NCBI GenBank assembly: GCA_951812955.1
Contig: OX638340.1
Location: forward strand, 1,696,001-1,760,000
Length of the DNA stretch: 64,000 bases
Source of the DNA: an uncultured Gemmatimonadota bacterium
GTDB taxonomy: Bacteria > JAAXHH01
Direction: 5' to 3'
Below, piece after piece: positions 6,950 to 39,364 of this stretch. The notes below the pieces were generated by a model. That model did no database searches and was not told the origin of the DNA. It worked only from the letters and a program-made list of their open reading frames with translations. The position numbers and the translations under genes were made by a program. The stretch's first letter is position 1; the number at the start of each line of letters is the position of its first letter.

Positions 6950-7152
6950 GGGGGATGATAGCAAAGATGACAGTTCATATATTCGAATTTAAGCATAAAC
7001 TGACTAGCATTCTCTACGTTGCAATTCCCAATTCATACACGCAAGCCTTACGCTGACCGGTCGTACATAGCTAGTTTGGAAAGGCACACATCTATCTAAC
7101 ACTTCACGATAGATCCATTTGGCCATTTCTGTAAGAAAACTGCAGTTTCTTT

Positions 7153-8835
7153 TTAGCTATTGGGCATAGATGTAGGATGTATCTGGTCAAGTGAAGTCTT
7201 AAAGTCCTTTATTTCATAAAGTATAAATCGATCCGCATCATTCAATAAACCACGTAAACGATTCCCATAGTCTATATCGAGATGTTTCTGGCCACCGTGT
7301 ATTATTGAGTGTATTAAAAAACTCCTCATGTATCCTTCATCACCACTTTCATTAAGACGACTGACTTCTCTAAGTACAACTTCGAACATTTCAACAATAA
7401 ACCTATACTCAAATCGCTCAGATTCCAAGATTGTGGCGAGACAAGTCCCAAGTGCAACTGCAGAAGACAAAGGGATGTTATCGTTTGGAAGTGACCAAGT
7501 ATTCCAATCAAGAATTACCCCGTTGTTTTGCTTTGGTAGGTTTCTATGGTGTGAGTCATCTGGTAATTCAGAAACTAGATGAATCCAACTACATAAAGTG
7601 CTTAATACCACATAAACCAATCTAGCCGATCGTGTTGGGAATTCGTCTGTAGTATCCACAGATGGATCAGACGAATCATAGGAACCTTCCAAAGCATCGA
7701 TAACAGACGTCATGTAATAAAGCCACATATGCCATGTAACACCCTGATAGGCTGCGGCTTTAACCATAAGGTCGAAAAACACAACTCCGACAAACACACC
7801 ATTCTCCCAACACTCATAATCGAATTCAACCGCAGTACCCTGTAAGTAATCTACAAAATCAGAAGACTTGTTTGGATTCAGTAACTGTAGGATATGCTTC
7901 CCAACCGGTTGCCATACTTCCAGTTGTAGCGCTATGTTTGCATTCGAAAAGAGAAAATACAAGAGACGATTGCTTACAGGAAACTCATAGCCATGTTGGT
8001 AAGAAATGTTCTGGTTGTATTGGATTTCTTGGTATAGAACGCTTCCTGTGTCAGCGATTAACAGGCTTAAGTATTTTTCAGAAAACTGACGACTACCAAA
8101 TATGTCCTGGTAAATCAGCGGAATCGCAAAGTACGGTCTATTTGTTGCGATATAAACCCGAAGTTCTTCGGACTGAAAAAACACGCGCGCGATGTTTTCC
8201 GCAGAATCTTGAGCACTGTACTGACTAGGTACAATAAACGCTAGTTTACCAAGCCATCGTCGCCCCACTTTAAACAAACCACTTCGATGTGTTGCTGCAG
8301 ATTGTGATTCCTGATCCAAAACCGTGTATCTTAATGCCGCAATATCTCCTTGCATGGCCCCCAAATTGTCATGATGTCGTTGTAAAAACAGCTTTCGATG
8401 TGATGCCTTCCCAATTACTGGTAAATAGGGTTCGATGAATTCAAGCAATTCAGAATACCGCTTTTCAAGCGATAACCGATCTACTATTCGAGCGATTCTT
8501 ACTAGCAAAAAGGACGAGAATAGCCTCGGGATGCTCAAGTGTATTACTATAGCAAAGATGATCCAAAACAAGACTACGAAAAAGGCAACACCGGAGGGAG
8601 AAAGTGGGCTGGATTCTTTGAAAACAATCCACGTGCATAAACTACCTAGAACAGCTGGGCAAGGTTGCCCAAAAACTTCGAAAAACTCAAGATAAACTAC
8701 TATGAAAAGCGAAACTAACGCTAGTGGGATCTGAAGGACAATGACCAGCTTAGCACGTAGTTTATCAACATGCGTGGCAAGTGTATATGCAGCTAGTACT
8801 AGAGTTAAGAATGTTAGAAAACCGTCTAGGGTCAT
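7153..8835 (-). CDS. Hypothetical membrane-anchored protein (~4 N-terminal TM helices plus a ~400-aa soluble domain), the only gene in an AT-rich island
   Basis: Long uninterrupted ORF (560 aa) in a ~2-kb segment of roughly 40% GC, flanked by ~65% GC genes. I recognise no family motifs. Confidence 0.6.
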   Translation of the reverse strand: MTLDGFLTFLTLVLAAYTLATHVDKLRAKLVIVLQIPLALVSLFIVVYLEFFEVFGQPCPAVLGSLCTWIVFKESSPLSPSGVAFFVVLFWIIFAIVIHLSIPRLFSSFLLVRIARIVDRLSLEKRYSELLEFIEPYLPVIGKASHRKLFLQRHHDNLGAMQGDIAALRYTVLDQESQSAATHRSGLFKVGRRWLGKLAFIVPSQYSAQDSAENIARVFFQSEELRVYIATNRPYFAIPLIYQDIFGSRQFSEKYLSLLIADTGSVLYQEIQYNQNISYQHGYEFPVSNRLLYFLFSNANIALQLEVWQPVGKHILQLLNPNKSSDFVDYLQGTAVEFDYECWENGVFVGVVFFDLMVKAAAYQGVTWHMWLYYMTSVIDALEGSYDSSDPSVDTTDEFPTRSARLVYVVLSTLCSWIHLVSELPDDSHHRNLPKQNNGVILDWNTWSLPNDNIPLSSAVALGTCLATILESERFEYRFIVEMFEVVLREVSRLNESGDEGYMRSFLIHSIIHGGQKHLDIDYGNRLRGLLNDADRFILYEIKDFKTSLDQIHPTSMPNS

Positions 8836-8933
8836 TTCAACAATCCTTCTCTTAGTAAATGGGTTTACTTCCAGTCAGGAACTCTAAAGAGCATATAAAA
8901 TAGAGTTTTTAAAAAGATCATATGGTTCTTTTA

Positions 8934-10100
8934 CTACGCTTTCTCCAACGCCTGGTCCAGATCGGCGATGATGTCGTCCGGGTCTTCCAGGCCCACCGAA
9001 ACGCGCGCTCTAAAACCGCCATCCGCGCTCTCGCCCGAGGGCAGGATCAACGTCTCCACATCGCCCAGACTATACCACGGCTTGCACATCTTTAGCCGGC
9101 CTAAAAAGCGGTCGAGCGAGACGCCGGGCTTGGAGACGAACCGCATCATTCCCCCAAAACCGTGCAGGTATCCGGTCGCGACCTCGTGATTCGGGTGTGA
9201 GGTCAGGCCCAGGTAGTCGACACGGGTGATCTTTTTGTGCTGGTCCAGGTACTCCGCCACCTTCTGGCCGCTGCCGCAGTGCCGCTCCATCCTGAAGGCC
9301 AGCGTCTTGAGGCCCCGGTGTACGAGGAAGGCGTTCATGGGCGCCAGCACGCCACCCATGAGGATCCGCATAAAATGTATCTGCTTCCTGATCTCTTCGT
9401 CGCGGCCGGAGACGATCCCGGCAAGGGCGTCACCGTGCCCGGCCATGTACTTCGTCATGGCGTGGAGGACCACGTCGGCGCCGTAGTGCAGAGGCCGCAG
9501 CAGGTAGGGCGATAGAAAGGTGTTGTCGACCACCACCAGGGCTCCAGCTTCATGGGCCATGTCCGTGGCGCGTGCTAGATCGATGAATTCCATGGAGTGG
9601 GCGTACGGTTCGAAATAGACCATCCTGGTCGGCTTTTTAAGCGCGGTTTCGAGTGCGTTCAGTTCGCACAGGTTTACCATCTGGACTTCCACGCCCCACT
9701 TCGTCGGCAGCACGTCCTGGAACAGCATGTGGGTCCCGGCATAAACGGTCTCGTGACAGACCACCCGGTCGCCGCTTTTAAGCAGGCCGAACAAGGTCTG
9801 GCTGACCGCCGACATGCCGCACGAGGTCGCCTGCGCCCACTCCGCGCCTTCGAGGATCCGCACCTGTTCTTCGAGCGCGCCGCTGGTGGGACCGCCCGCC
9901 TTGTCCAATCCCCGGCCGTAGGAGTTCGTCCCCTCGTAACCCTCGCGGTAGTTGGTGTTTCCCTGGTAGATCGGCACCGAAGACGACGTGCCATGGTACC
10001 CGCCGTGGATGGCGTCCGTGGTAAAATCCCGGTTGTCGGCCGACTGGTAGTCATCGGCTGCGAAACGGAGGTCGTTACGGAGGTCGTGGTTGTTGGGCAT
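8934..10100 (-). CDS. PLP-dependent trans-sulfuration family enzyme (cystathionine gamma-synthase / gamma-lyase / methionine gamma-lyase-like)
   Basis: Cys/Met-metabolism PLP family signatures: the TKYMAGHGD lysine motif, VVDNTFLSPY, and a C-terminal domain with VSLGDVETLI. Confidence 0.85.
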   Translation of the reverse strand: MPNNHDLRNDLRFAADDYQSADNRDFTTDAIHGGYHGTSSSVPIYQGNTNYREGYEGTNSYGRGLDKAGGPTSGALEEQVRILEGAEWAQATSCGMSAVSQTLFGLLKSGDRVVCHETVYAGTHMLFQDVLPTKWGVEVQMVNLCELNALETALKKPTRMVYFEPYAHSMEFIDLARATDMAHEAGALVVVDNTFLSPYLLRPLHYGADVVLHAMTKYMAGHGDALAGIVSGRDEEIRKQIHFMRILMGGVLAPMNAFLVHRGLKTLAFRMERHCGSGQKVAEYLDQHKKITRVDYLGLTSHPNHEVATGYLHGFGGMMRFVSKPGVSLDRFLGRLKMCKPWYSLGDVETLILPSGESADGGFRARVSVGLEDPDDIIADLDQALEKA

Positions 10101-10315
10101 AGTAAGAATCCCTCAGTTAAACACTACGGGGCTATGGTGGAGTCTGGACCAATGCAGAACCAGTGGACAAACAGATCGAGAAAGAACCCGGGTTCTTGAC
10201 TGGTTTAAGGTAAATGGGGGTTAAAGGGGGTCAAGCCATATCAGTCGTGCTTCGTGGGATGTCGAGATCATGATTCCACGCTATATCATTCAGGTTATTA
10301 CGATTTCATTCGGCA

Positions 10316-10350
10316 TTAACGTTTGACGTTAATAACACGTAACGTTATTA
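10316..10350. promoter_or_regulatory. Two adjacent inverted repeats (TTAACGT-N3-ACGTTAA and TAATAAC-N7-GTTATTA) in the AT-rich leader of the XRE-kinase operon; putative operator
   Basis: Read directly from the sequence ~75 bp upstream of the XRE gene start. Type II TA and XRE operons are commonly autoregulated through such palindromes. Confidence 0.4.
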
Positions 10351-10426
10351 TTGTATTAGCATGATGATATCGTTCAAAGACCATTTTCGTACAGTCGAAC
10401 TTGTCGATTACCATTAGGAGTCAGAT

Positions 10427-10732
10427 ATGCCTTCCGACTTGATGCACCCAATTCATCCCGGTGAGATCCTCAAGGAAGAGTTTCTGGAACCATTAGGCCT
10501 GAGTCAGTATCGTGTCGCTGTGGACATTTCAGTTCCACCGCGCCGTATAAACGAAATCGTTCACGGCAAACGCTCTATATCCGCTGACACGGCATTACGG
10601 CTGGCACGCTATTTCGGAACTACGGATCGTTTCTGGCTGAACCTACAGACACACTACGACCTGGAGAAGGAAAGAGATCGCTTAGGAAATCGATTGGAGA
10701 CCGAGGTACTTGTACTGGAGCGATCGAACTGA
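10427..10732 (+). CDS. HigA-family XRE helix-turn-helix antitoxin-like regulator (orphan: no HigB upstream)
   Basis: 101 aa. MHPIHPGEILKEEFLEPLGLSQ ... ISADTALRLARYFGTTDRFWLNLQ is the canonical HigA/VapI HTH signature. Confidence 0.85.
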   Translation: MPSDLMHPIHPGEILKEEFLEPLGLSQYRVAVDISVPPRRINEIVHGKRSISADTALRLARYFGTTDRFWLNLQTHYDLEKERDRLGNRLETEVLVLERSN

Positions 10733-10746
10733 AGCCGCAAAAGTTT

Positions 10747-11751
10747 ATGTCTCAACACCCGGCATCTCTTACCAAACTACTGCACAAAGCCAGTATTAAG
10801 CGCGGGGGCATTCGATGCGTAGAACCGATCGGCGATGGCGTAACCAACCGGACCCTATTGGTTACTCTGAAGGACGGCAAGCGCTACGTCCTACGCGAAT
10901 ACGATTGGCCTTACCCTTCAAGTGATAATCTCCAAAGACTCGATAAAGAGGTTTATCTACACAATCTGCTTCTAAAATACGATGTACCGGTTCCGTCCAT
11001 CGTTGCCAGTCACGACGATGGAAGTAACTGTGCCGTGCTGATGGAGTATATGCCAGGATTGCTTCTTGGAAATGTTGTAGATACCCTGACTGAAGTACAA
11101 CGGGCTCAAGCCTGGCGGGCTGCCGGAACAGCTTTACGGAATGTTCATTCGATCCGGCTGCTTGATGGCTGTTCGGGCGTGATCGTCGGTGAGCGCGTCC
11201 AGCCTTTTGAAGAAGGATCCTGGGGAGACTTTCATTTCCATCAGGCTATACAGCATGCGAATCACCTACTGAAGCGGGATGTGGGATTGCATTTCGACCT
11301 GCCGTCGATGAAGAACGTATTGAAACAGGCGGTTCCCCTGCTGAACGAATCTCCGGTGGTCCTGCTGCACAACGACCCCCATCCCTGGAATGTGCTTGTT
11401 AACGAGGTAGCCGGCCATTGGACCTGTTCAGCATGGCTTGACTGGGAATACGCCTGGTCAGGAGACCCGGTCTGGGACCTTGTTCGGACCGATCTGTTCC
11501 GGTTGAAACGGATCGGTCCCACGCCGGACGCCTTCTACGAGGGATATGGCGCTTTCCCTCGAGAACCGAATCGAAGTATCTACGAACTTTCCATTAACCT
11601 TTGGATGGCCGACCAGTACCTGGATGGAGAAATAGACGAGGAACGGGTACTCATGCCCACCTACGAGGCGGCGATGCAGTACCTGGGCCGGATCGACGAA
11701 GCGGTGGTAAGGATCGGAAACGAGCTTGAAAGGGCTGACCGGCTGCCTTGA
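10747..11751 (+). CDS. APH/choline-kinase-fold phosphotransferase (protein-kinase-like superfamily)
   Basis: Brenner motif LLHNDPHPWNVLV and the D-x-E metal loop WLDWEYAWSGDPVWDL (Pfam APH-like). Starts 15 nt after the XRE gene stop. Confidence 0.8.
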   Translation: MSQHPASLTKLLHKASIKRGGIRCVEPIGDGVTNRTLLVTLKDGKRYVLREYDWPYPSSDNLQRLDKEVYLHNLLLKYDVPVPSIVASHDDGSNCAVLMEYMPGLLLGNVVDTLTEVQRAQAWRAAGTALRNVHSIRLLDGCSGVIVGERVQPFEEGSWGDFHFHQAIQHANHLLKRDVGLHFDLPSMKNVLKQAVPLLNESPVVLLHNDPHPWNVLVNEVAGHWTCSAWLDWEYAWSGDPVWDLVRTDLFRLKRIGPTPDAFYEGYGAFPREPNRSIYELSINLWMADQYLDGEIDEERVLMPTYEAAMQYLGRIDEAVVRIGNELERADRLP

Positions 11752-21182: not shown

Positions 21183-21324
21183 CCCACCGAGACGCCGAGC
21201 AATCCGCGATCATCGCGCCCCACACCGAATTGCCGAGCAGTCCGCGATCATCGCGCGTCACACCGAAACGCCGAGCAGTCCGCGGCCACCGCGCGTCACA
21301 CCGAGACGCCGAGCAGTCCGCGAG
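21183..21324. repeat. Tandem repeat of a ~38-bp unit (caccgaRacgccgagcaRtccgcgRYcaYcgcgcgt), ~3.7 copies
   Basis: Read directly. Units are contiguous with no spacers. The array overlaps the last codons and the 3' flank of the UxaA-family gene. Confidence 0.85.
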
Positions 21325-24037
21325 TAATTTGGAAATCCGTGTTGCCGAGGGCCTCGGCCCGGGGCGTATGAATACTGGCGGCCGTGCGTCGGATCAGGTC
21401 CAGGATGTCTTTCCGCTGTGCCTCCGGTCCACCTTCCAGGATGTGGTCCACGTCTTCGCGGAAAGGTCCGGGCAGGTCCTCCGCACCGACCAGGAGTACT
21501 GGAATCATGGGATGGCCGGGCAGTGGATGGCTGCCGACCCCAGCGACGACCAGCTCCACGCCGGAAGCGCCCAGCCCGGTCATGGTCTCCACCCAGTGCG
21601 TAGTCTGTGACTCCATGACGTGCAGCCCGGGCACGGTAAAAGGTTCGCCATAGGCCAAAGTAGGCTTTGCCGGTCCGTCCGCCAGGTGACGCACGAAGGA
21701 CGGATGACCAAGCAACGCCGAGTTGTCCGGCACGACGACCGTTCCACCCTCGCTTACGACATCGAGGATCAGCCGTGAAAGCGCTTCGGAAAGGTCATCG
21801 GAGAGCGGATCGGCCGCGGACACACCCAGCCTGAGATCGGACAGACCGGTATTGCCCGCGACAGGACCATCGCAATCTTCCAGGGTCTCGGCGAACCAGG
21901 TTTCGATGCGATCGATTGCCTTTTCGATACCGCCATCGAGCTGTACGCTGGCCCAGCCGAATCCCGCTGGATCTATGCCGCGGTCCAGCAACTGCTGCCG
22001 ATAGAAGTCGTTGTGCGTGCGTTCGCAGCCATGCTCCAGAAGCAGGGCGGCCCCCGTCATCGGGTGGGTCAGGTAGCCGGTCATGGTGCGGATGTACATC
22101 TCCTCCGACACGCCGCCCGATACGCCGCACCCCTCGGTGTGTACCAGGGTGACGAATCGGGATATGCCGGCCCCGCACCCAACACCTTTCGCACTCAGCC
22201 GCTCCGCGGCCATCCGGGCGATCTGTCCGGAGCACAGGCTGGTGGGTAGAATCAGGCCGACGCGGTCTGTGGCGAGGTTTCCGTTCACTTCGTACATGGG
22301 CAGTTCGAAAGGCGGTGGAGGCGTCGACGCCTCGTTCGAGCGGACCGCCAGCGGTTCTCCCATCGGCGCTGGCCTGTCGCGGAGGACCTGCAGCCGACTC
22401 CCGTCTGTCTGGCGCCAGTCGCGCCAGATCTGGGTCTGGCTGTGACCCGCCTTTTCGCCGCGGGTCAGTTCGCCCGAGGCCGTTCGCAATGTCAGGTCAA
22501 GAGTCCTTCGTCCCAGTTCGTCCATGGATTCGCCGTCCAGGTAGGCGCCGGCGTTGACGTCCATTTCGCCCGAAAGCATTTCGTACCGTTTCGTAGTCGT
22601 CACGATTTTGATCGTAGGGACAAAAGGAAAGTTGGTGATGGATCCGTTGCCGGTTATGAAGAAGATGACATTGCCGCCGGACGCTACCTGGCCGGCGATA
22701 GCTTCCAGGTCGTTGCCGGGACTGTCCATGAAGTAGTACCCCGGCTCCTTCATCGGTACCGCGTAGTCGATGGCGTAGTCGAGTCGTACGTCGGGGTGGC
22801 GCTTCCGGGCCGCGCCGATGGATTTGAGCACGATGTTGTAAATCCCCCTGAGCTTGTTGCCCCCGGAGGGGTTGGCATCCACCGACTGGCCATGCCACGC
22901 CGTTCGCTCCTGGAAACGCTCGATCATGTGGAGGAACGTGCGGGCCGTCTCGATATCCCGGACATTCTGCAGCACATAGGGTTCGCCGCCGATGAGCTCG
23001 TCAGTTTCGGCAAGACTGGCCTTGCCTCCGAAGCGGATGATCTCCCGTGCGACGAGCGCGGCCAGCGGATTGCCCGATATGCCCGAAAACGAATCCGAAC
23101 CACCGCACTGAAGCACGATGTTGAGATGGGACGCGGAAGCCGGCATCCGTGCGACGCGGTTAACCGTCTCGAACCAGCCGGTGACGAACCTCGCACTACG
23201 CTCAAGTTCCTCGTCAAATCCGCCTTTGAGCGTTTCAAAACGGTGCAGCACCTCGTTCAGCGGATAGCCGTTAAGCCGCATGTAGTTTTCCAGCATCCGG
23301 TCCGTCACGATTTCTGTTCCGCGGTCCACCGCGTAGACCGCACCCACATTGGGATGGACCATGAAGCCCGCCAGCGTCCGCAGCACCAGTTCCCGGTTAT
23401 TGGGGTCCACCCCGGCGCCGCCCTCGGTATGTGCCACGGCCACGACGCCATCTATATTCGGATACCGTTCCACCTTTTCCTTCAGTCTGGATTCCAGCCG
23501 CCGCACGAATCCTGCCGTCTGCGACGTAATGCCCAGGAGGACGATGAAGTTCCGGGTTCCGACGCCCCGCGCCTTCCCTCTGTCATATCCATCGAAGGTC
23601 GGAGGCTTGTCGCTGACAGGAATCTGCTCGCCCGGTGTGAAGGTGGATTCGTCCAGCTCGTAGGGTACCACGCGGTCTTCGAAGTTCGGCTGATCCGGGA
23701 GGGCGAAATCTACCTGCCGTACGCGGAGGGCGTTGAGAATGTCGCCGTTGCAGATGTAATCGCCCGGCGCGATGTCCCGGGTCGCCCGTCCGAAAGGCTG
23801 TCCCCAGGACAGGACGTACTCCCCGGCAGGTATGGCCCGGATGGCGAAACGATGCCCTTCCAGCAGTGAATGGGCGACGGAAAAGGAGTTGCCGGTTTCG
23901 TTGGCAACGCGCGTGCCGGCCTCCAGCCTTCGGGACACGATGGCCACGTTGTCGCCGGGTTCGGCAAGGCGCGCAATGTCTTTCAGGCGGCAGACGGACA
24001 CGATGCCAGGATCCTTGCTGTTAGCATATCTAACCAT
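21296..24037 (-). CDS. UxaA-family (altronate / galactarate dehydratase-like) protein with an internal tandem duplication: SAF domain + Cys-less dehydratase copy + second Cys-containing dehydratase copy
   Basis: 913-aa continuous ORF. Contains an N-terminal SAF domain and a first dehydratase module with the GD_AH_C signatures (CGGSDSFSGISGNP, FFITGNGS, HSQTQIWRDWRQ) but no Cys in the iron-site region. A second module has the Cys ligands (LILPTSLCSGQIA, HTEGCGVSGG, LEHGCE) and ends with FQITRG. Confidence 0.75.
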   Translation of the reverse strand: MVRYANSKDPGIVSVCRLKDIARLAEPGDNVAIVSRRLEAGTRVANETGNSFSVAHSLLEGHRFAIRAIPAGEYVLSWGQPFGRATRDIAPGDYICNGDILNALRVRQVDFALPDQPNFEDRVVPYELDESTFTPGEQIPVSDKPPTFDGYDRGKARGVGTRNFIVLLGITSQTAGFVRRLESRLKEKVERYPNIDGVVAVAHTEGGAGVDPNNRELVLRTLAGFMVHPNVGAVYAVDRGTEIVTDRMLENYMRLNGYPLNEVLHRFETLKGGFDEELERSARFVTGWFETVNRVARMPASASHLNIVLQCGGSDSFSGISGNPLAALVAREIIRFGGKASLAETDELIGGEPYVLQNVRDIETARTFLHMIERFQERTAWHGQSVDANPSGGNKLRGIYNIVLKSIGAARKRHPDVRLDYAIDYAVPMKEPGYYFMDSPGNDLEAIAGQVASGGNVIFFITGNGSITNFPFVPTIKIVTTTKRYEMLSGEMDVNAGAYLDGESMDELGRRTLDLTLRTASGELTRGEKAGHSQTQIWRDWRQTDGSRLQVLRDRPAPMGEPLAVRSNEASTPPPPFELPMYEVNGNLATDRVGLILPTSLCSGQIARMAAERLSAKGVGCGAGISRFVTLVHTEGCGVSGGVSEEMYIRTMTGYLTHPMTGAALLLEHGCERTHNDFYRQQLLDRGIDPAGFGWASVQLDGGIEKAIDRIETWFAETLEDCDGPVAGNTGLSDLRLGVSAADPLSDDLSEALSRLILDVVSEGGTVVVPDNSALLGHPSFVRHLADGPAKPTLAYGEPFTVPGLHVMESQTTHWVETMTGLGASGVELVVAGVGSHPLPGHPMIPVLLVGAEDLPGPFREDVDHILEGGPEAQRKDILDLIRRTAASIHTPRAEALGNTDFQITRGLLGVSV

Positions 24038-24083
24038 TTCCTACGCAATTAAATCGACGGAAGAATAAACTATAGAAACAAGA

Positions 24084-25334
24084 CTACGTATCTTTGGAGA
24101 GCATCAACTGGATTTTGGGATGGAGATGGCTAACAAGCCTATTCAAGTGATCCCTCATCCAGGAAACAGCGTTCTCGAAATCCGGGGTTTCCCCTTCTTG
24201 TGACAGAAACGACATATCACAGTCCAGATAAAACCCAATTCTTGGTCTATCGGCCGTGTTGTACCACTGGTCGAGGTTATTACCAAGTACTTTTTTAAGA
24301 TCCTCAAACGAGGCATTGATTTCTTCAAAGATCCTGACTTCTCGAGTCTGGTTTTTACGAACTGTAAGATAGCATCCGATTGCCCCGTTTTGTCGGTACA
24401 GATAACCCACAAAACTCAATGCCCAACCGTTGAATGATGAATTCTTTACTGGTAAATATAGAGTTGGATCTTTAGGTGGTTTGGGCCATAACTCAGTCAG
24501 TGAATCTATGGTTGAATCCGAAAACGAGAAATCTTTCAAAACTGCATTCCAAAATCGCAGGTTTTCCTTTTCATATGGTGATTCTTGATAATCATCATCA
24601 CTAGATTCGTCCAGGTCTGCAGGTACGACAGCTCCATTATCACTCTCAATTACGAAACGTCGTACGATTTCAGTACGCGCAAGTACACGAGGATGAACAA
24701 ACAGATTGTGGGCTTTATCGCGGTAAAGGGCCGCTTCCACTAGTGCCAGGTTGAAGTGTAATCCACTGTGGCGCTGTACGAAATCTACTATGTTTTCCAC
24801 ACCTTCCCGAATACCATCGCCAACTATCAATAGTAGGAATTCCCCGCGTTTCAGGTGACGTGAGACATTGTCAACGAATTCAGCTTCATTCAGGTTTGAT
24901 TTTTCTTTACGCACTTTTACGTAGAGAACATTCCCATTCATGCCGGTATTCAGAGATACTTCACGTTGCAAATCTTCGTAATCCCACGAAGCTACTTCCT
25001 TCGTGTAGTCGAGTATTTGGCCAATAACCTCTCGCCGTGCCTGCTGGTTACGCCAGAGTTTGAACTCAACTAGTACAAGTTTTCCTAAGTGGTTTGCGTA
25101 TAACGCGTCTAAGTATCCAGCATTAGTATTCAACTCTCGACAGATTGGAACTAATCCTTCGTATGCAGGATCGATGGCTGTTATTGGTAGAGCTTGTGGA
25201 TGACAAAAAAGAAGCTTTTGTAGCTTTTCTTCGTAAATGCTCCCGTCAGATACTCCAGTATCAAGTGGGACACGAGTTACAACTTCTGGATCTTCGTCTT
25301 CGACATTATTCACAATGATCAGTTTATCTGACAT
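24084..25334 (-). CDS. PD-(D/E)xK nuclease-fold protein (NucS/DUF91-like N-terminal domain plus an uncharacterised C-terminal domain), the only gene in an AT-rich island
   Basis: AGYLDALYANHLGKLVLVEFKLW...REVIGQILDYT matches the D...(E)xK...QxxxY core of RecB/NucS-like nucleases. About 42% GC versus ~65% in the flanks. Confidence 0.55.
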   Translation of the reverse strand: MSDKLIIVNNVEDEDPEVVTRVPLDTGVSDGSIYEEKLQKLLFCHPQALPITAIDPAYEGLVPICRELNTNAGYLDALYANHLGKLVLVEFKLWRNQQARREVIGQILDYTKEVASWDYEDLQREVSLNTGMNGNVLYVKVRKEKSNLNEAEFVDNVSRHLKRGEFLLLIVGDGIREGVENIVDFVQRHSGLHFNLALVEAALYRDKAHNLFVHPRVLARTEIVRRFVIESDNGAVVPADLDESSDDDYQESPYEKENLRFWNAVLKDFSFSDSTIDSLTELWPKPPKDPTLYLPVKNSSFNGWALSFVGYLYRQNGAIGCYLTVRKNQTREVRIFEEINASFEDLKKVLGNNLDQWYNTADRPRIGFYLDCDMSFLSQEGETPDFENAVSWMRDHLNRLVSHLHPKIQLMLSKDT

Positions 25335-25601
25335 TTACACACTCCAAATTTTGTCACGATTACAGATCCTGATACTTCCTTGCGCCAAAAGTATCTGAAG
25401 TAGATTTCAAATTTCGACACTTTCAGGCCATTCTTGTATTGAGAACGTAATTGATGAAATCCTCGATTCCCGGACTGGCAAGGTACCACTCGCCCCGACT
25501 CCGTGTCAAAGGTAATTCGGCGGCCGCCGATCCGCCCGCCGGATGCCGCGAGCGGCACAGTTGACGCTGCGGCCGAACGGTGTACATTGTCTTCCGGACT
25601 T

Positions 25602-25694
25602 GGTTCGTCTCACGGGCCGGACGCGGTTTCGTCTCACGGACCATTCACGGTTTCATCTCAATCGACGGTCGCGGTTTCATCCAGCGGAACCCCT
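25602..25694. repeat. Four direct repeats with exact 23-bp periodicity (core cGGTTTCrTCTCA) ~50 bp upstream of the following gene; putative regulator-binding sites
   Basis: Core copies start at 25602, 25625, 25648 and 25671, read directly. Confidence 0.6.
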
Positions 25695-25740
25695 CGCTTC
25701 CAGATTCCGATCCAGAACATCCGCCAGCCGGAGGTCCAAA

Positions 25741-27333
25741 ATGCTTGTAGGGTACGTCAGCGACGAACGATATGTTGCCATTCCTGAAGTCCTGCTCGAA
25801 TTCGAAGCCGGCGGGGAATCCATCGAAGCGCGCTCGCGGGCTACGGGGGCGGTCTACGCGGACGTAACGCCCGGACGGGAATACAGGGTCACGCTGGCAT
25901 GCAGGGATTTCGGATTCAAGAGCGTGTACATGACACCGCGCGAAGACCAACCCTACCATTTCCGGCTGTTGCGGGACGACCTGCTGGGCTACATGTGGCC
26001 CAAGTGGGTCCGTACCGGGGAGAAATCGGAATTCCGCGTGCACGCCGTGGAGGCCTACCAGTTGGAACTCTACCGCTACGGATGGAAGAAGGAATACATC
26101 CGGAACATCGGCTGGTACGACGAGCACGGCCCCCGCGCCACGATGCAGATCACGCCCGATGGCGATTACACGCGGTCCGGGGTGAAGTGGAACACCCAGG
26201 GCTATACCAATCCCGCCCACAAACAATACATCGAGGCGCCGGAACGGTCCGGCCTGTACTACCTGCACGCTTCCACTGAGAACGGCGGTTTCTTTTCCTT
26301 CCCCTGGATCGTCGCACCGGCCGCGCCGTCAGCCGACGTCGCCGTACTGGCCGCCAACATCAACTGGAACGCCTACAACAACTTCGGGGGCCGTAGCAAT
26401 TACATCCACGCCGACGAGTTTCCGCCGACCCCCACGGTCAACGCCCGCTACGACCTGAAGCGGTACACCGATCCCTCGCACCGGATGTACAGCGCGGAAG
26501 ACTATGCGCCGCTCTCCTTCGACCGGCCGGAACCGATAAACCACGTTCCCGAGGACGACGAAGCGATGGACATGATCGCGGGTCGCGCGGCGTGCCACGT
26601 CGCGCCCGCGGAGTGGCGTTACCTGGCCTGGATGGAACGGGAGGGATTCGGCTACGACCTATATGCGGAGACGCAGTTCCATGACGGCACGCTGCCCCTT
26701 GACCGGTACCGGGTGCTGATCACCACTACCCACCCGGAATACTGGTCGAAGGACATGTATTTCCGGCTCAAGGCCTGGGTATTCGAATCAGGTGGCAGGC
26801 TCATGTATCTGGGCGGCAATGGCCTGAATTGCGAGGTCGTGTTCGTCGACGAGTACACCATGAAGGTCATGAACGGCAACATCGATTCTCTCGACCGGCC
26901 AGGGGTGGGCATTGAAAGCCGTTTCAACATCTACAACGAATCGGAAGCCAACCTGCTCGGCGTCGCCTTCACGCGGACGGGGATCATGACCAGCGCGCCT
27001 TACCGCGTGATCGACGCAGGCCACTGGGTCTTCGAAGGTACCGGGGTACAGGAAGGAGATATCTTCGGCGAAGCCAGCCTGCACGAACGGGTCCCCGGCG
27101 GCGCGTCGGGACACGAGACCGACAAGATTACCCCGAGTTCACCGCCGAACACCCACCTGATCGCCAAGGGCACCAACGTGGATGATGGCGGCGCCGAGAT
27201 GGTCGTGCATGAGACGGAAAGCGGCGGGATGGTCTTCTCGGCGGGATCGATCACCTATCCGTCGTCGATCCTCGTCGACGACGTGGTGTCGCGGGTCACG
27301 TCCAACGTGCTGAAGCGGTTTCTGGTGGACTGA
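25741..27333 (+). CDS. Large hydrolase-like protein, tentatively N,N-dimethylformamidase large-subunit-like (DUF6605-type)
   Basis: 530 aa with high coding GC3. Family assignment is from memory of motifs (INWNAYNNFGG, YRVLITTTHPEYWS) and is not verified. Confidence 0.45.
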   Translation: MLVGYVSDERYVAIPEVLLEFEAGGESIEARSRATGAVYADVTPGREYRVTLACRDFGFKSVYMTPREDQPYHFRLLRDDLLGYMWPKWVRTGEKSEFRVHAVEAYQLELYRYGWKKEYIRNIGWYDEHGPRATMQITPDGDYTRSGVKWNTQGYTNPAHKQYIEAPERSGLYYLHASTENGGFFSFPWIVAPAAPSADVAVLAANINWNAYNNFGGRSNYIHADEFPPTPTVNARYDLKRYTDPSHRMYSAEDYAPLSFDRPEPINHVPEDDEAMDMIAGRAACHVAPAEWRYLAWMEREGFGYDLYAETQFHDGTLPLDRYRVLITTTHPEYWSKDMYFRLKAWVFESGGRLMYLGGNGLNCEVVFVDEYTMKVMNGNIDSLDRPGVGIESRFNIYNESEANLLGVAFTRTGIMTSAPYRVIDAGHWVFEGTGVQEGDIFGEASLHERVPGGASGHETDKITPSSPPNTHLIAKGTNVDDGGAEMVVHETESGGMVFSAGSITYPSSILVDDVVSRVTSNVLKRFLVD

Positions 27334-27420: not shown

Positions 27421-28371
27421 CTACAACTTCCTCTGGTAGACCCCCGTCACCCGGTGGTTCATTCCCTTCTCGAGGATCAGGTCCGCCCGTTCTCGGGTTG
27501 GAATGATGTTATCGCGCAGGTTCACCAGGTTGATGTCCCGCCAGATTCCCCTGGCCGTTTCCACGGCCTCTTCCGTACTCAGGCCAGCATAGTGATGGAA
27601 GTAGGACTCGGGATTTTGAAAAGCGGTATCCCGTAGCCTCAGGAACCGGTCGACGTACCACTGCGCCAGATCGTGTTCCTCGGCTTCCACGTAAATCGAG
27701 AAATCGATGAAGTCGGATACGAAGACACGAGGCGACGCGTCGCCGGCCAGGTGATGGCCGGTCTGCAGGATGTTCAACCCCTCCAGGATGATGATATCGG
27801 GCTGCGTGATCGTCTTTTCGACGCCGGGCACGATATCGTAGATCAGATGCCTGTACACCGGAACGGTGACCGTCTCACGGCCCGACTTCACGTCCGCCAT
27901 CATCCGCACCAGACGCCGGAGATCGTAGCTCTCCGGAAAGCCCTTCCGCTGCATGAGTCCTCTTTCCTCAAGGACCCGGTTGGAAAACAGGAATCCGTCC
28001 GTGGTGACCAGGTCCACCCGGGGATGGTTCGGCCAGCGGCTCAGCAGGGCCTGCAGGATACGCGCCGTCGTGCTCTTACCCACCGCCACGCTGCCTCCGA
28101 TACCGATTACGTAGGGCACTTTGGCGGCCGGTTTGCCGAGGAAGGTGTCCATTACCCGGTACAGGTGCTGCGCCGCGCCAACATGCAGGTTGAGAAACCG
28201 CGACATGGGCAGGTACACCTCGGCGACCTCGTCGAGGTGTACCATCTCGTTGATGCCGTGCAGTTCCTTCAGGTCTTCTTCCGACAGCGTCAGCGGCGTA
28301 GCGGCGCGCAGTTCCGACCACTCGTCGCGGGACATGTAGTTGAAAGGGGAAAGAGAAGACGATGGGGACAT
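27421..28371 (-). CDS. coaA: Type I pantothenate kinase
   Basis: P-loop [18 protein letters not shown] and the PRK/uridine-kinase fold motifs. 316 aa, typical of CoaA. Confidence 0.85.
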
Positions 28372-31510: not shown

Positions 31511-32599
31511 GTGGAGTCGCAGAAATATCAGTACCGGCCGGACTACGCAGTGCAGCCAGGATGGGTCTTGGAAGAGAGATTGGACGCGCATGGCATGACG
31601 CACGCTGAATTCGCACGCAGGTGTGATCGTTCACCGAAGCTCATCAGCGAAATCATCGCTGGGAAGGCTCCGATCGTACCAGAGACTGCTTTTCAATTTG
31701 AATTGGTGTTAGGCGTTGATGCCAGTATCTGGTTAGGTATAGAGGCTGACTATCGTCTATACTTGATCCGTGCTATTGCCGAAAAAAGAGCAGAAGCCGC
31801 TGGCACGTGGTCCAGATCATTTCCAGTTAGAGACCTAGCCAAACGAGGGGTAATCCGCAAATCGGCATCTACGGGTAAGGCGGCATCTGAGCTACTGGCT
31901 TTCTTCGGTGTAGCATCAGTAAATGCATGGAAGATGAAGTACGAAAACGTAAATGCCGCCTTTCGTCAATCACCGTCATTCGAAAGCGACAGAGCTGCAT
32001 TAACTGCTTGGCTTAGACTCACCGAGATAGATGCACAGGATCAGGACTGCGACAGCTACGACGTTGCCAAGTTCAAACAGGTGCTGGCTCAAGTACGCCA
32101 CCTCACCCGGACACCGGTCCGTGAGGCTTTAAAAAACGCCAGAACACTTTTAAATGAGGCCGGGGTTGCCTTGTCGTTGGTCAAGCCATTGCCAAAAACA
32201 AGGGTGAGTGGCGCTGCATGGTGGGTTTCCCCTAACCGACCCGTTGTTGCGCTGAGCGGGCGTCACAAAACAGATGATCATCTATGGTTCAGCTTGTTTC
32301 ACGAAGCAGCACATATCATCCTGCATGGCAAGAAAAACGTGTTTGTCGATAGGGCGAACGGAGGGGCCGATAAAACCGAAAATGAAGCTAACCAGTGGGC
32401 GATCAATTTCCTGATTCCGAGTACAGCCTGGAGTGGTTTTGTAGCAAAGAGTAGTTTTCGTAGAAGAGATGTGTGTGATTTTGCTGACGAACACCAAATC
32501 TCGCCAGGTATAGTGGTGGGGAGACTCCAGCACACGAAACAGAGAAACTGGAACCACCTTAATACCCTCAAAACACGGTTGCAATGGTCGGACGAGTGA
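31511..32599 (+). CDS. higA: HigA-type XRE antitoxin fused to an ImmA/IrrE-family zinc metallopeptidase domain
   Basis: N-terminal HTH (GMTHAEFARRCDRSPKLISEIIAGKAPIVPETA) plus a C-terminal HEAAHIILH (HExxH) peptidase motif. Confidence 0.8.
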   Translation: MESQKYQYRPDYAVQPGWVLEERLDAHGMTHAEFARRCDRSPKLISEIIAGKAPIVPETAFQFELVLGVDASIWLGIEADYRLYLIRAIAEKRAEAAGTWSRSFPVRDLAKRGVIRKSASTGKAASELLAFFGVASVNAWKMKYENVNAAFRQSPSFESDRAALTAWLRLTEIDAQDQDCDSYDVAKFKQVLAQVRHLTRTPVREALKNARTLLNEAGVALSLVKPLPKTRVSGAAWWVSPNRPVVALSGRHKTDDHLWFSLFHEAAHIILHGKKNVFVDRANGGADKTENEANQWAINFLIPSTAWSGFVAKSSFRRRDVCDFADEHQISPGIVVGRLQHTKQRNWNHLNTLKTRLQWSDE

Positions 32600-38344: not shown

Positions 38345-38905
38345 CTAGGGACTGAACACGATAGATACGGTGATCGGAATCCACTTTGTGGCCTCGATTT
38401 CCGTCGCCGCGTGATTGTATCGCGCATCAATGGCCACGCCGATTGACGGATTGATGGGAATTAGAACCCCTCCACCTACTGTAAAGCTTAAAACAGTCTC
38501 GGTGTTACTGACAGATAGGGACCCGCTAGAAACATTACCTTTGTTTCGCGTAATCCCTATACCTCCCTGCCCATACACACCAACGGGGGAAGAAGAACGC
38601 AGCATTATTCCAAGGTTCGCACCGGTGAGTGTTACATCTGCGTCTACTCCCAAGGATGTTAGCTCTTCTGCCGCACCATATTTGCTGTAGTGGCCATCCA
38701 ATACCGCATGCAAGTTTTGATAAACCGGCAAAGACACTCCGCCGCGAATCGCCAGTCCGTTGTTAACATCTTCGGCGTCAATGGGTATACCCAGTCCGCC
38801 TCCTACCGTAAACGACGGCGACATTTCCTGGGCATGTACAGTTTCAAGTGTGGATATCGACACGAGAACAACCGCTGCCAACAATGAGAGTGCTGCCTTT
38901 CGCAT
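38345..38905 (-). CDS. Outer-membrane beta-barrel protein (OmpA-like/porin-family barrel)
   Basis: AAGGAG RBS and ATG at 38905. Signal peptide MRKAALSLLAAVVLVSISTLETVHA. Alternating hydrophobic beta-strand pattern with Gly-rich turns. Confidence 0.6.
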   Translation of the reverse strand: MRKAALSLLAAVVLVSISTLETVHAQEMSPSFTVGGGLGIPIDAEDVNNGLAIRGGVSLPVYQNLHAVLDGHYSKYGAAEELTSLGVDADVTLTGANLGIMLRSSSPVGVYGQGGIGITRNKGNVSSGSLSVSNTETVLSFTVGGGVLIPINPSIGVAIDARYNHAATEIEATKWIPITVSIVFSP

Positions 38906-39364
38906 GAGACTGCTCCTTGATGAAGAAATACAGAGTTGAAAGAGAAACTTAAGGAACCTCTGATAATTACCAAATTGTTTGATCATGAGGAATGTTATGA
39001 GTCCTGTGGAACTTACATACAATAACCTACAACGCAAGTACTTTCTACTCCTACATGTGATCATAATGAGAGGTAAATCACAAATATGTGACTATTATGT
39101 GAACTTTCCATATGGGTCTTTTATCAACCCGTTTGTCCGATCGTGAGGTATGATCTGCGTCTGTTTGGAGGGCGATCATGATTGAGTGGTTTCATTTTGG
39201 TTGCTTGTGATGGAGTCTTCGGCCCCATGAGAGCGAACAACACGTCCCGGAGCAATACTACATTACAGACGTAGGAGCAACAACAGATGAAGGATCAACG
39301 GTCCATTAAAACAACTGCGAACTGGCTCTGTTATGTGACATCCGGAATAACTGTAATCTTGACA

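What the first reader, a model, noticed from the sequence alone, without database searches (positions are those of the whole stretch)
24038..25740. Second AT-rich single-gene island: stand-alone 416-aa PD-(D/E)xK (NucS/RecB-like) nuclease-domain protein
This ~1.7-kb segment of ~42% GC lies between divergent high-GC genes. It encodes one protein whose N-terminal third carries a classic PD-(D/E)xK core (YLDAL...LVLVEFKLW...QILDYT), followed by ~250 aa of unknown function. Stand-alone nuclease-fold proteins in foreign-composition islets are frequent components of anti-phage defense repertoires. It could also be a restriction-like or Mrr-like enzyme remnant. It and the 7.1-8.8 kb orphan are the best candidates in this window for uncharacterised defense genes.
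Basis: partly seen in the sequence, partly recalled or inferred. Interest (0 to 1): 0.55.

Follow-up and report, generated by a model that had tools for sequence, protein, structure and literature searches.

The report
Stand-alone NucS-like/DUF4268 defence-type nuclease cassette
An AT-rich 1.4-kb single-gene cassette inserted in front of a sugar-acid dehydratase gene encodes an intact nuclease that is distantly related, in both of its domains, to recently described enzymes that cut chemically modified phage DNA, so it is most likely an uncharacterised anti-phage restriction enzyme rather than something of a new kind.

Summary
ORF 24084-25334 (-) encodes a 416-aa protein at 43% GC in a 59% GC window, with an invariant PD-(D/E)xK core (D76, E90, K92, Q106, Y110).

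Best reading (confidence about 0.55): a single-chain, type IV-like, modification-dependent restriction nuclease.

The "foreign islet" is a real insertion. Four related genomes have the empty site, and the cassette (~24030-25460) sits between the promoter-like block and the ribosome-binding site of the dehydratase gene. It is not recent: it co-diverged with its flanks in a close relative, is under purifying selection, and shows no GC amelioration.

It has no conserved partner gene and is not usually in a defence island. The family is large and, among its closest relatives, found mostly in genomes that appear to be sponge symbionts. I rate it a new variant of a known kind, of moderate interest.

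The parts
24030..25460 (-). Inserted AT-rich cassette. The boundaries are approximate, +/- about 15 nt at each end.
   Evidence: Alignment of three filled and four empty sites (A5). Homology with the empty sites stops after the conserved promoter-like block and resumes at the AAGGA Shine-Dalgarno sequence of GD_AH. GC is 0.43. There are no terminal repeats or target duplication, and no tRNA in the window.
24084..25334 (-). CDS of the 416-aa nuclease, stop codon included.
   Evidence: A 100%-identical protein is in the public collection (P0001), with more than 3,400 homologues, and the 120 best-scoring are mostly ~405-420 aa. dN/dS is 0.08-0.18.
24660..25232 (-). NucS-like PD-(D/E)xK nuclease module, residues 35-225.
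25005..25109 (-). Catalytic core D76 ... E90-x-K92 ... Q106 ... Y110.
   Evidence: These residues are invariant in alignment A1 (36 sequences). D, E, K and Q are also invariant in 49 distant relatives (A4). They lie on strands 73-80 and 86-91 and on helix 97-116 of the model.
24585..24659 (-). Acidic, poorly conserved linker, residues 226-250.
   Evidence: pLDDT is below 50 for residues 223-250. Mean identity is 35%.
24087..24584 (-). C-terminal DUF4268-like domain, residues 251-416. Presumed DNA or modification sensor.
25335..25460 (-). Leader of the cassette, with a GGAG ribosome-binding site 8 nt before the ATG.
   Evidence: Read from the sequence. Conserved with L084 and partly with L086. 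The scan found no sigma-70-type promoter in this leader.
25472..25515 (-). Native promoter-like block (TTACCTTTGACA-N-GTTACCTTGCC), shared by filled and empty sites and now upstream of the nuclease gene.
   Evidence: Conserved in all seven sequences of A5. That it functions as a promoter is an inference.
23999..24016 (-). Shine-Dalgarno sequence (AAGGA, 24012-24016) and probable true GTG start (23999-24001) of the GD_AH/UxaA dehydratase, directly downstream of the cassette.
   Evidence: Conserved in filled and empty sites. Gene calls in the empty-site loci start at this GTG. The ATG at 24037 listed lies in the inserted DNA.

Best explanation
The gene encodes a single-chain, two-domain restriction-type nuclease of the NucS-like-nuclease plus DUF4268 kind. 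This is the architecture of PADLOC PDC-S11 (Madara). DUF4268 is also the accessory domain of MdgA and MdgB.

Proposed mechanism:
1. The C-terminal DUF4268-like domain binds DNA and recognises a feature of foreign DNA, most likely a base hypermodification carried by phages. This step is inferred.
2. That binding licenses the N-terminal PD-(D/E)xK module (D76/E90/K92), probably as a dimer, to cut the DNA. Dimerisation is inferred.
3. No methyltransferase partner is needed, because the host's own DNA lacks the mark.

Shown here: the fold, an intact and invariant catalytic core, remote homology of both domains to PDC-S11 models and to DUF4268, absence of a partner gene, purifying selection, a C-terminal domain more variable than the nuclease module, and accessory status (filled and empty sites, alternative sites, two divergent copies in some genomes).

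Inferred: the defence role, dependence on DNA modification, and dimerisation.

The cassette lies in the 5' leader of the GD_AH dehydratase gene, in the same orientation, so it is probably transcribed from the resident promoter.
For: - Catalytic core: D76, E90, K92, Q106 and Y110 are invariant in 36 homologues, and D, E, K and Q are invariant in 49 distant relatives.
- PDC-S11, nuclease module: the window protein hits PDC-S11 at E 5.8e-8, and 48 of 49 distant relatives hit the same model.
- PDC-S11, C-terminal domain: other PDC-S11 models hit this domain in P0013 (62% identical to the query) and in P0129.
- DUF4268: P0129 scores above Pfam's cut-off, and hhalign of our C-domain profile against it gives probability 96.2%.
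- Published function of relatives: Madara (PDC-S11) restricts T4 carrying glucosyl-hmC but not T4 with plain cytosine, and its D63A mutant is dead (bioRxiv 10.64898/2026.09.05.749240). MdgA and MdgB carry DUF4268, and MdgA degrades T4 DNA but not T4-GT7 DNA in vitro (PMC12366544). DUF4268 is fused to GmrSD type IV enzymes (PMC4619093).
- No conserved neighbour in 80 loci.
- Selection and variability: dN/dS is 0.04-0.11 in the nuclease module and 0.14-0.23 in the C-domain. Mean pairwise identity is 73% for the N-module and 48% for the C-domain, and paralogues in one genome differ mainly in the C-domain.
- Accessory status: empty sites in four relatives. A different site is used in a genome whose orthologues are about 83-88% identical to the window's.
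Against: - All family matches are weak and partial. The window protein itself hits only one PDC-S11 model, covering about 35% of it, and no Pfam family reaches its cut-off.
- I could not obtain the Madara or MdgA sequences, so no direct alignment to a tested protein exists.
- The immediate neighbours are mostly metabolic genes. Among 150 of them, the only R-M-type families in the listed top 25 were REase-ARP (3) and type II methyltransferase (2).
- Each lineage keeps the gene at its own conserved site, and the gene tree broadly follows host taxonomy. That is more stable than many defence genes.
- There is no match in 50,697 phage records and there are few in plasmids.
Confidence: 0.55

Rival explanations
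1. It is a defence or conflict nuclease, but not a reader of DNA modification. The DUF4268-like domain would sense another cue, such as a phage protein, a DNA structure or free DNA ends. Activation would cause non-specific DNA cleavage (abortive infection) or sequence-specific restriction.
For: The nuclease fold is shared with Shedu, HamA, Can2 and Card1, which are triggered in other ways. The C-domain fold resembles type III secretion chaperones and YbjN-like protein-binding domains as much as it resembles DNA binders. The Madara authors themselves leave open 'a non-specific abortive response'.
Against: Both experimentally tested relatives with this domain combination are modification-dependent. 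DUF4268 is otherwise fused to GmrSD type IV enzymes. No sensor or partner gene is conserved nearby.
Confidence: 0.17
2. It is a DNA repair or recombination nuclease of the host, a NucS/EndoMS-like function kept for genome maintenance in these symbionts rather than for immunity.
For: The closest solved fold is the repair enzyme NucS. Each lineage has a conserved site among metabolic genes. The gene tree broadly follows host taxonomy. Selection is purifying at the same level as in the flanks. There is little defence-island context.
Against: Only the NucS C-terminal (nuclease) domain matched in Pfam, and only weakly. Close relatives lack the gene at this site, and one carries a copy only 62% identical to the window's at another site. 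Some genomes carry two divergent copies. The C-domain is variable. The gene keeps a composition foreign to its host.
Confidence: 0.13
3. It is a selfish, homing-type nuclease cassette. The nuclease would cut empty sites in related genomes, and the gene would be copied in by recombination, which would explain precise insertion without any mobility gene.
For: The insertion is precise and intergenic, with no integrase, transposase, terminal repeats or target duplication. The filled state is not monophyletic on the flank tree: filled L086 is the sister of empty L093. The nuclease dS between the window and L086 is about twice that of the flanks.
Against: The same family sits at many unrelated sites across phyla, which would require many target specificities. 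The gene belongs to no known homing-endonuclease family. The C-domain links it to type IV enzymes. It is stably co-inherited with its flanks between the window and L084.
Confidence: 0.07

Closest known systems
PADLOC PDC-S11 = Madara (E. coli ECOR34; bioRxiv 10.64898/2026.09.05.749240)
   Same: It is a single-protein system with an N-terminal NucS-like PD-(D/E)xK nuclease, a linker and a C-terminal presumed sensor domain. PDC-S11 HMMs hit both domains of this family. It is likewise an AT-rich gene in its host.
   Different: All hits are weak (E 1e-5 to 1e-15) and each covers only one domain. This family is about 40-100 aa longer than the PDC-S11 models (313-379 positions). Madara lies beside BREX in a defence island, whereas this gene lies among metabolic genes. 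Madara's C-domain was described as EVE-like, which our model does not show. No direct sequence comparison was possible.
MdgA / MdgB modification-dependent nucleases (Cell Host Microbe 2025, PMC12366544)
   Same: They are stand-alone nucleases that carry DUF4268. The catalytic residue of MdgA is near the N-terminus (E77). They are active against T4 but not against T4-GT7.
   Different: DUF4268 is detected in our family only at profile level.
NucS / EndoMS mismatch endonuclease (PDB 2vld)
   Same: It has the same nuclease fold and the same D...ExK...Q...Y motif pattern.
   Different: Only the NucS C-terminal nuclease domain matched, and weakly; the rest of the protein differs, with a DUF4268-like C-terminal domain added. 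The gene is an accessory cassette rather than a core repair gene.
GmrSD/BrxU-type type IV restriction enzymes with a C-terminal DUF4268
   Same: They share the presumed DNA-binding or sensing DUF4268 domain and are single-polypeptide enzymes without a methyltransferase.
   Different: Their nuclease is of a different kind: DUF262 (ParB-like) plus DUF1524 (His-Me finger), not PD-(D/E)xK.

Membership tests
PD-(D/E)xK nuclease superfamily (NucS-like branch) | Restriction-endonuclease-like alpha/beta fold | tested here: met
PD-(D/E)xK nuclease superfamily (NucS-like branch) | Catalytic D ... (D/E)xK triad present | tested here: met
   D76, E90 and K92 are invariant in A1 and in A4.
NucS/EndoMS proper | N-terminal NucS DNA-binding domain, and family-level HMM score | tested here: not met
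   NCBIfam NucS scores 16.9 bits against a cut-off of 216. Pfam NucS_C scores 16.8 against 24. No other Pfam family, and so no second NucS domain, matches at E<=1.
PADLOC PDC-S11 (Madara) | Full-length match to a PDC-S11 HMM | tested here: not met
   The window protein hits PDLC04916 only, at E 5.8e-8 and 30 bits, covering profile positions 43-169 of 358.
PADLOC PDC-S11 (Madara) | Same two-domain architecture, with both domains homologous | tested here: inconclusive
   N-module: 48 of 49 relatives hit PDLC04916, and hhalign gives 99% to a PDC-S11-like protein. C-domain: PDLC04911-14 hit relatives P0013 and P0129, but not the window protein itself.
PADLOC PDC-S11 (Madara) | Restriction of phages with hypermodified cytosine; nuclease-dead mutant inactive | not testable with these tools
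   Needs plaque assays.
DUF4268 (PF14088) | Pfam HMM match above the gathering score | tested here: not met
   The window protein has no hit at E<=1. Ten of 36 family members have hits, the best at E 0.0038.
DUF4268 (PF14088) | Profile-level homology to a confirmed DUF4268 domain | tested here: met
   hhalign of A3 against P0129 (DUF4268 at 38.5 bits against a cut-off of 27) gives probability 96.2%, E 2.4e-9, over 149 columns.
Type IV (modification-dependent) restriction enzymes | Nuclease with a DNA-reader domain and no cognate methyltransferase | tested here: met
   There is no conserved neighbour. The window's neighbours are a dehydratase and a DMFA2_C protein. Methyltransferases occur beside only 2 of 150 neighbours.
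Type IV (modification-dependent) restriction enzymes | Cleavage depends on modified bases | not testable with these tools
   A biochemical assay is needed.
Defence-island gene | Homologues enriched next to known defence genes | tested here: not met
   Neighbours one gene away on each side in 75 loci were scanned. The top Pfam families are SDR, aminotransferase and TPR. REase-ARP occurs 3 times and type II MTase twice. The SspA/DndA hits are the syntenic class-V aminotransferase. Only the top 25 families are visible, and no background rate was computed.
Mobile element (IS, integron cassette, genomic island) | Transposase or integrase, terminal repeats, target duplication, tRNA target | tested here: not met
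   The cassette holds one ORF only.

The most novel reading that the evidence does not exclude
A pan-phylum 'sponge-symbiont' nuclease family (Dehalococcoidia/SAR202, Gemmatimonadota/Latescibacterota, Acidobacteriota, Spirochaetia, Alpha- and Gammaproteobacteria, Binatia) that is kept as a one-gene cassette inserted into the leaders of resident operons. It would be held at a low-GC compositional equilibrium for long periods (silencing or expression control). It would read a DNA mark specific to that habitat, such as hypermodified phage DNA or eukaryote-type methylated DNA taken up by the sponge, through a fast-evolving DUF4268 domain of a fold with no solved homologue. It might spread between relatives by recombination aided by its own nuclease.
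Probability: 0.1. Interest if true: 0.7.

Novelty: new variant of a known kind. Interest (0 to 1): 0.45.

Why it matters
If the reading is right, this is a large family that annotation does not recognise: more than 3,400 close homologues and about 4,900 50%-identity clusters in the wider superfamily. It would be a family of single-gene type IV-like restriction enzymes missed by Pfam, NCBIfam and PADLOC thresholds.

It would tie two very recent experimental discoveries, Madara/PDC-S11 and MdgA/MdgB, into one superfamily with a conserved NucS-like nuclease and an exchangeable DUF4268-type reader.

It would also give a defined, testable defence candidate for sponge-symbiont bacteria, which cannot be cultured.

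The filled and empty sites, resolved almost to the nucleotide, and the long-lasting compositional anomaly make it a clean case for studying how a defence gene is gained, kept and expressed without any mobile-element machinery.

Tried and rejected
- Sequence search of the PDB with the protein and with profiles found nothing useful. The only match was a chance RAD18 hit at E 0.07-0.18.
- PHROGs gave nothing.
- tblastn against phage records found no match.
- Rfam found nothing in 23800-25900.
- No paralogue is present in the window.
- No homologue of the window's flanking genes occurs in any of the first 83 loci, so the window's site is different from theirs.
- The search for flanking direct or inverted repeats, a target duplication or a tRNA gave only chance-level short matches.
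- The sigma-70 promoter scan found no site in the cassette leader.
- A recent-HGT explanation of the low GC was rejected because of equal dS with the flanks between the window and L084 and balanced AT<->GC changes.
- 'Mrr-like remnant' was rejected: the ORF is intact and conserved, and only one of 36 members has a weak Mrr_N hit.
- An exact look-up of the window's own protein on contigs failed.
- The MdgA sequence could not be found, because no supplementary files are held.
- The AFDB Foldseek library was unavailable.
- Foldseek of the C-domain against the PDB gave no significant hit.

Full report
**1. What is there**

The region holds one long ORF, 24084..25334 on the minus strand (416 aa, ATG start). 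Its GC content is 0.431 in a window of 0.591. The dip in GC runs from about 24050 to 25400.

The gene to the left, 21296-24037 (-), is a double GD_AH/UxaA-type sugar-acid dehydratase. The gene to the right, 25741-27333 (+), is a DMFA2_C-family protein. A type I pantothenate kinase follows at 27421-28371. The window has no tRNA. The island has no flanking repeats, and the region matches no Rfam family.

**2. The protein**

Pfam, NCBIfam and PHROGs give only sub-threshold hits: NucS_C at E 0.007 and NucS at E 0.0025. PADLOC gives PDC-S11 at E 5.8e-8 over residues 61-201.

The protein has more than 3,400 homologues. The 120 best are mostly ~405-420 aa long and, apart from three close relatives at 81-88%, 53-63% identical. 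In an alignment of 36 of them, D76, E90, K92, Q106 and Y110 are invariant. The same D, E, K and Q are invariant in 49 much more distant relatives.

A separate model of residues 248-416 is confident (pLDDT 88.9, pTM 0.86) but has no close solved relative:
- nothing significant by Foldseek

**3. What the C-terminal domain is**

- Ten of 36 family members give weak DUF4268 hits.
- P0129, a relative found with the family profile, has DUF4268 above Pfam's cut-off (38.5 bits against 27).
- The profile of our C-domain aligns to that region of P0129 with hhalign probability 96.2%, E 2.4e-9.
- PDC-S11 models PDLC04911, 04913 and 04914 hit the C-domain of P0013, which is 62% identical to the query. PDLC04911 to 04914 hit that of P0129.
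- PDLC04916 hits the nuclease module in 48 of 49 distant relatives.

So both domains are remotely homologous to those of PDC-S11 proteins, and the C-domain is a divergent DUF4268.

**4. The wider family**

A profile search of 1.84 billion cluster representatives finds 4,946 clusters at E<=0.001 and 858 at E<=1e-30, mostly of about 400 aa. All 103 full-length representatives among the best 150 keep the N-module. Only 37 keep a C-domain that our C-domain HMM recognises. Across 89 close family members, mean pairwise identity is 73% in the nuclease module and 48% in the C-domain. The pattern is a conserved nuclease with a variable reader.

**5. What is known about the relatives**

- PDC-S11 was renamed Madara in a September 2026 preprint. 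It is a single protein with an N-terminal NucS-like PD-(D/E)XK nuclease (the D63A mutant is dead) and a C-terminal putative modification sensor. It restricts T-even phages and T4 with glucosyl-hmC, but not T4 with plain cytosine.
- MdgA and MdgB were recovered by functional metagenomics. They are modification-dependent nucleases that carry DUF4268. MdgA degrades T4 DNA but not T4-GT7 DNA, and its E77A mutant is dead.
- DUF4268 is otherwise known as an extra domain of GmrSD type IV enzymes and is predicted to bind DNA.

I could not obtain the Madara or MdgA sequences, so the link rests on HMMs and domain names, not on a direct alignment.

**6. Genomic context of homologues**

Eighty loci from species-representative genomes were fetched. 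Judging by their lineage names and isolate codes, most appear to be MAGs of sponge-associated bacteria. Literature support was found only for Poriferihabitaceae and Azotimanducaceae; for the rest this is inference from the names.

No neighbouring gene is conserved across the loci. Of the 150 immediate neighbours, most are metabolic. The only R-M-type families among the listed top 25 are REase-ARP (3) and type II methyltransferase (2).

Several lineages have their own syntenic site, and an NJ tree of the protein broadly follows host taxonomy. Three genomes carry two copies. In two of those pairs the copies differ mainly in the C-domain, at 52-58% against 79-82% identity.

**7. History of this copy**

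Two related genomes carry the gene at the same site (L084 and L086; proteins 88% and 81% identical). Four others, whose dehydratase is 81-85% identical to the window's, have DMFA2_C and GD_AH adjacent with nothing between them.

The alignment of filled and empty sites places the insert at about 24030-25460. One end lies just after a promoter-like block conserved in all seven sequences (25472-25515). The other lies just before the AAGGA-N10-GTG translation start of GD_AH (24016-23999). The cassette has the orientation of GD_AH, carries a GGAG ribosome-binding site, and has no sigma-70-type promoter match in its leader. It is therefore probably transcribed from the resident promoter; this is inference.

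Evidence that the insertion is old and the gene functional:
- Between the window and L084, the nuclease and its flanks have the same synonymous divergence (dS 0.335 against 0.35-0.38).
- dN/dS is 0.08-0.18.
- GC3 is 0.36-0.39 in the nuclease against 0.71-0.86 in the flanks.
- Polarised third-position changes are balanced, with 18 AT>GC and 19 GC>AT.

The insertion is therefore old and is not ameliorating.

Evidence that the gene is nonetheless accessory:
- The filled state is not monophyletic on a tree of the flanks. Filled L086 is the sister of empty L093.
- The nuclease dS between the window and L086 is about twice that of the flanks.
- The genome of L003 is empty at this site but carries a copy only 62% identical to the window's at a second site, between an SDR gene and an aminotransferase gene.
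- At that second site, six genomes whose flanks are 76-92% identical hold nuclease alleles only 56-61% identical between allele classes.

This points to long-lived presence/absence polymorphism, or to allele exchange by recombination.

**8. Interpretation**

The best-supported reading is a single-chain, type IV-like restriction nuclease. A DUF4268-type reader would recognise a mark on foreign DNA, most likely a base hypermodification, and a NucS-like PD-(D/E)xK module would cut.

- Shown: the fold, the catalytic residues, remote homology of both domains, the lack of a partner gene, purifying selection, a variable reader domain, and accessory status.
- Inferred: the defence role, dependence on modification, dimerisation, and co-transcription with GD_AH.

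The rivals are a defence nuclease with a different trigger, a repair nuclease, and a homing-type selfish cassette. The evidence for and against each is given in the rival-explanation entries.

**9. Novelty and score**

The architecture and the probable mechanism are those of a kind described in 2025-2026. This family nevertheless falls below every curated threshold, is longer than the PDC-S11 models, has a reader domain with no solved relative, and shows an unusual ecology and history. I rate it a new variant of a known kind, interest 0.45.

Noticed in passing
window 24084-25334; L084 and L086 8001-9250: The cassette keeps GC3 at 0.36-0.39 while the flanking genes have 0.71-0.86. This holds despite equal synonymous divergence from L084 and balanced AT>GC and GC>AT changes. 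All copies in the Gemmatimonadota/Latescibacterota-like clade are AT-rich, whereas Dehalococcoidia copies are near host GC. The cause is unexplained.
   Followed up: partly
window 25604-25678: A 24-nt tandem repeat (3.1 copies, consensus TTCGTCTCACGGGCCGGTCGCGGT) lies in the native intergenic DNA next to the DMFA2_C gene. This stretch varies in length among relatives.
   Followed up: partly
window 23999-24037: The mechanically listed start of the GD_AH/UxaA ORF (ATG at 24037) lies inside the inserted DNA. Empty-site relatives start at a GTG preceded by AAGGA (window 23999-24001 and 24012-24016), so the first 12 codons of the listed ORF are probably not translated.
   Followed up: partly
window 7001-9000: A second AT-rich stretch (GC 0.40-0.42) holds ORF 7153-8835 (-), 560 aa, with no Pfam match.
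   Followed up: partly
window 31511-32599: A lower-GC stretch (0.48-0.52) encodes a protein with HTH_3 and Peptidase_M78 (ImmA/IrrE-like) domains.
   Followed up: no
window 38345-39064 and 10747-11751: Two further dips in GC (0.47-0.48) coincide with an outer-membrane beta-barrel protein and an APH-family kinase.
   Followed up: no
L084 and L085 (same contig, positions 224667-241911 and 3800387-3817631): The same locus appears twice on one 3.9-Mb contig. In one copy the DMFA2_C gene is split into two ORFs. This is probably an end overlap of a circular assembly rather than a real duplication.
   Followed up: no
L001, L002, L003, L005, L007, L013 (nuclease at about 10001-11250; in L007 at 1547-2800): At a second syntenic site, between an SDR gene and a class-V aminotransferase gene, six genomes with flanks 76-92% identical carry nuclease alleles only 56-61% identical between three allele classes. 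That is as deep as the differences between phyla.
   Followed up: partly
L009, L012, L017, L045, L046, L065, about 1.4 kb downstream of the match start: In six Dehalococcoidia/Chloroflexota loci a conserved gene of about 139 aa with unknown function (…WPHEYVLLQKDG…YKYWFM…) follows the nuclease gene, directly in four of them. A coiled-coil protein precedes the nuclease gene in seven loci. Neither was scanned individually.
   Followed up: no
L001-L080 (record titles): Most of the closest homologues come from MAGs whose lineage names and isolate codes point to sponge microbiomes. One plasmid homologue is from a Bosea strain isolated from the sponge Callyspongia. The isolation sources were not checked record by record.
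   Followed up: partly
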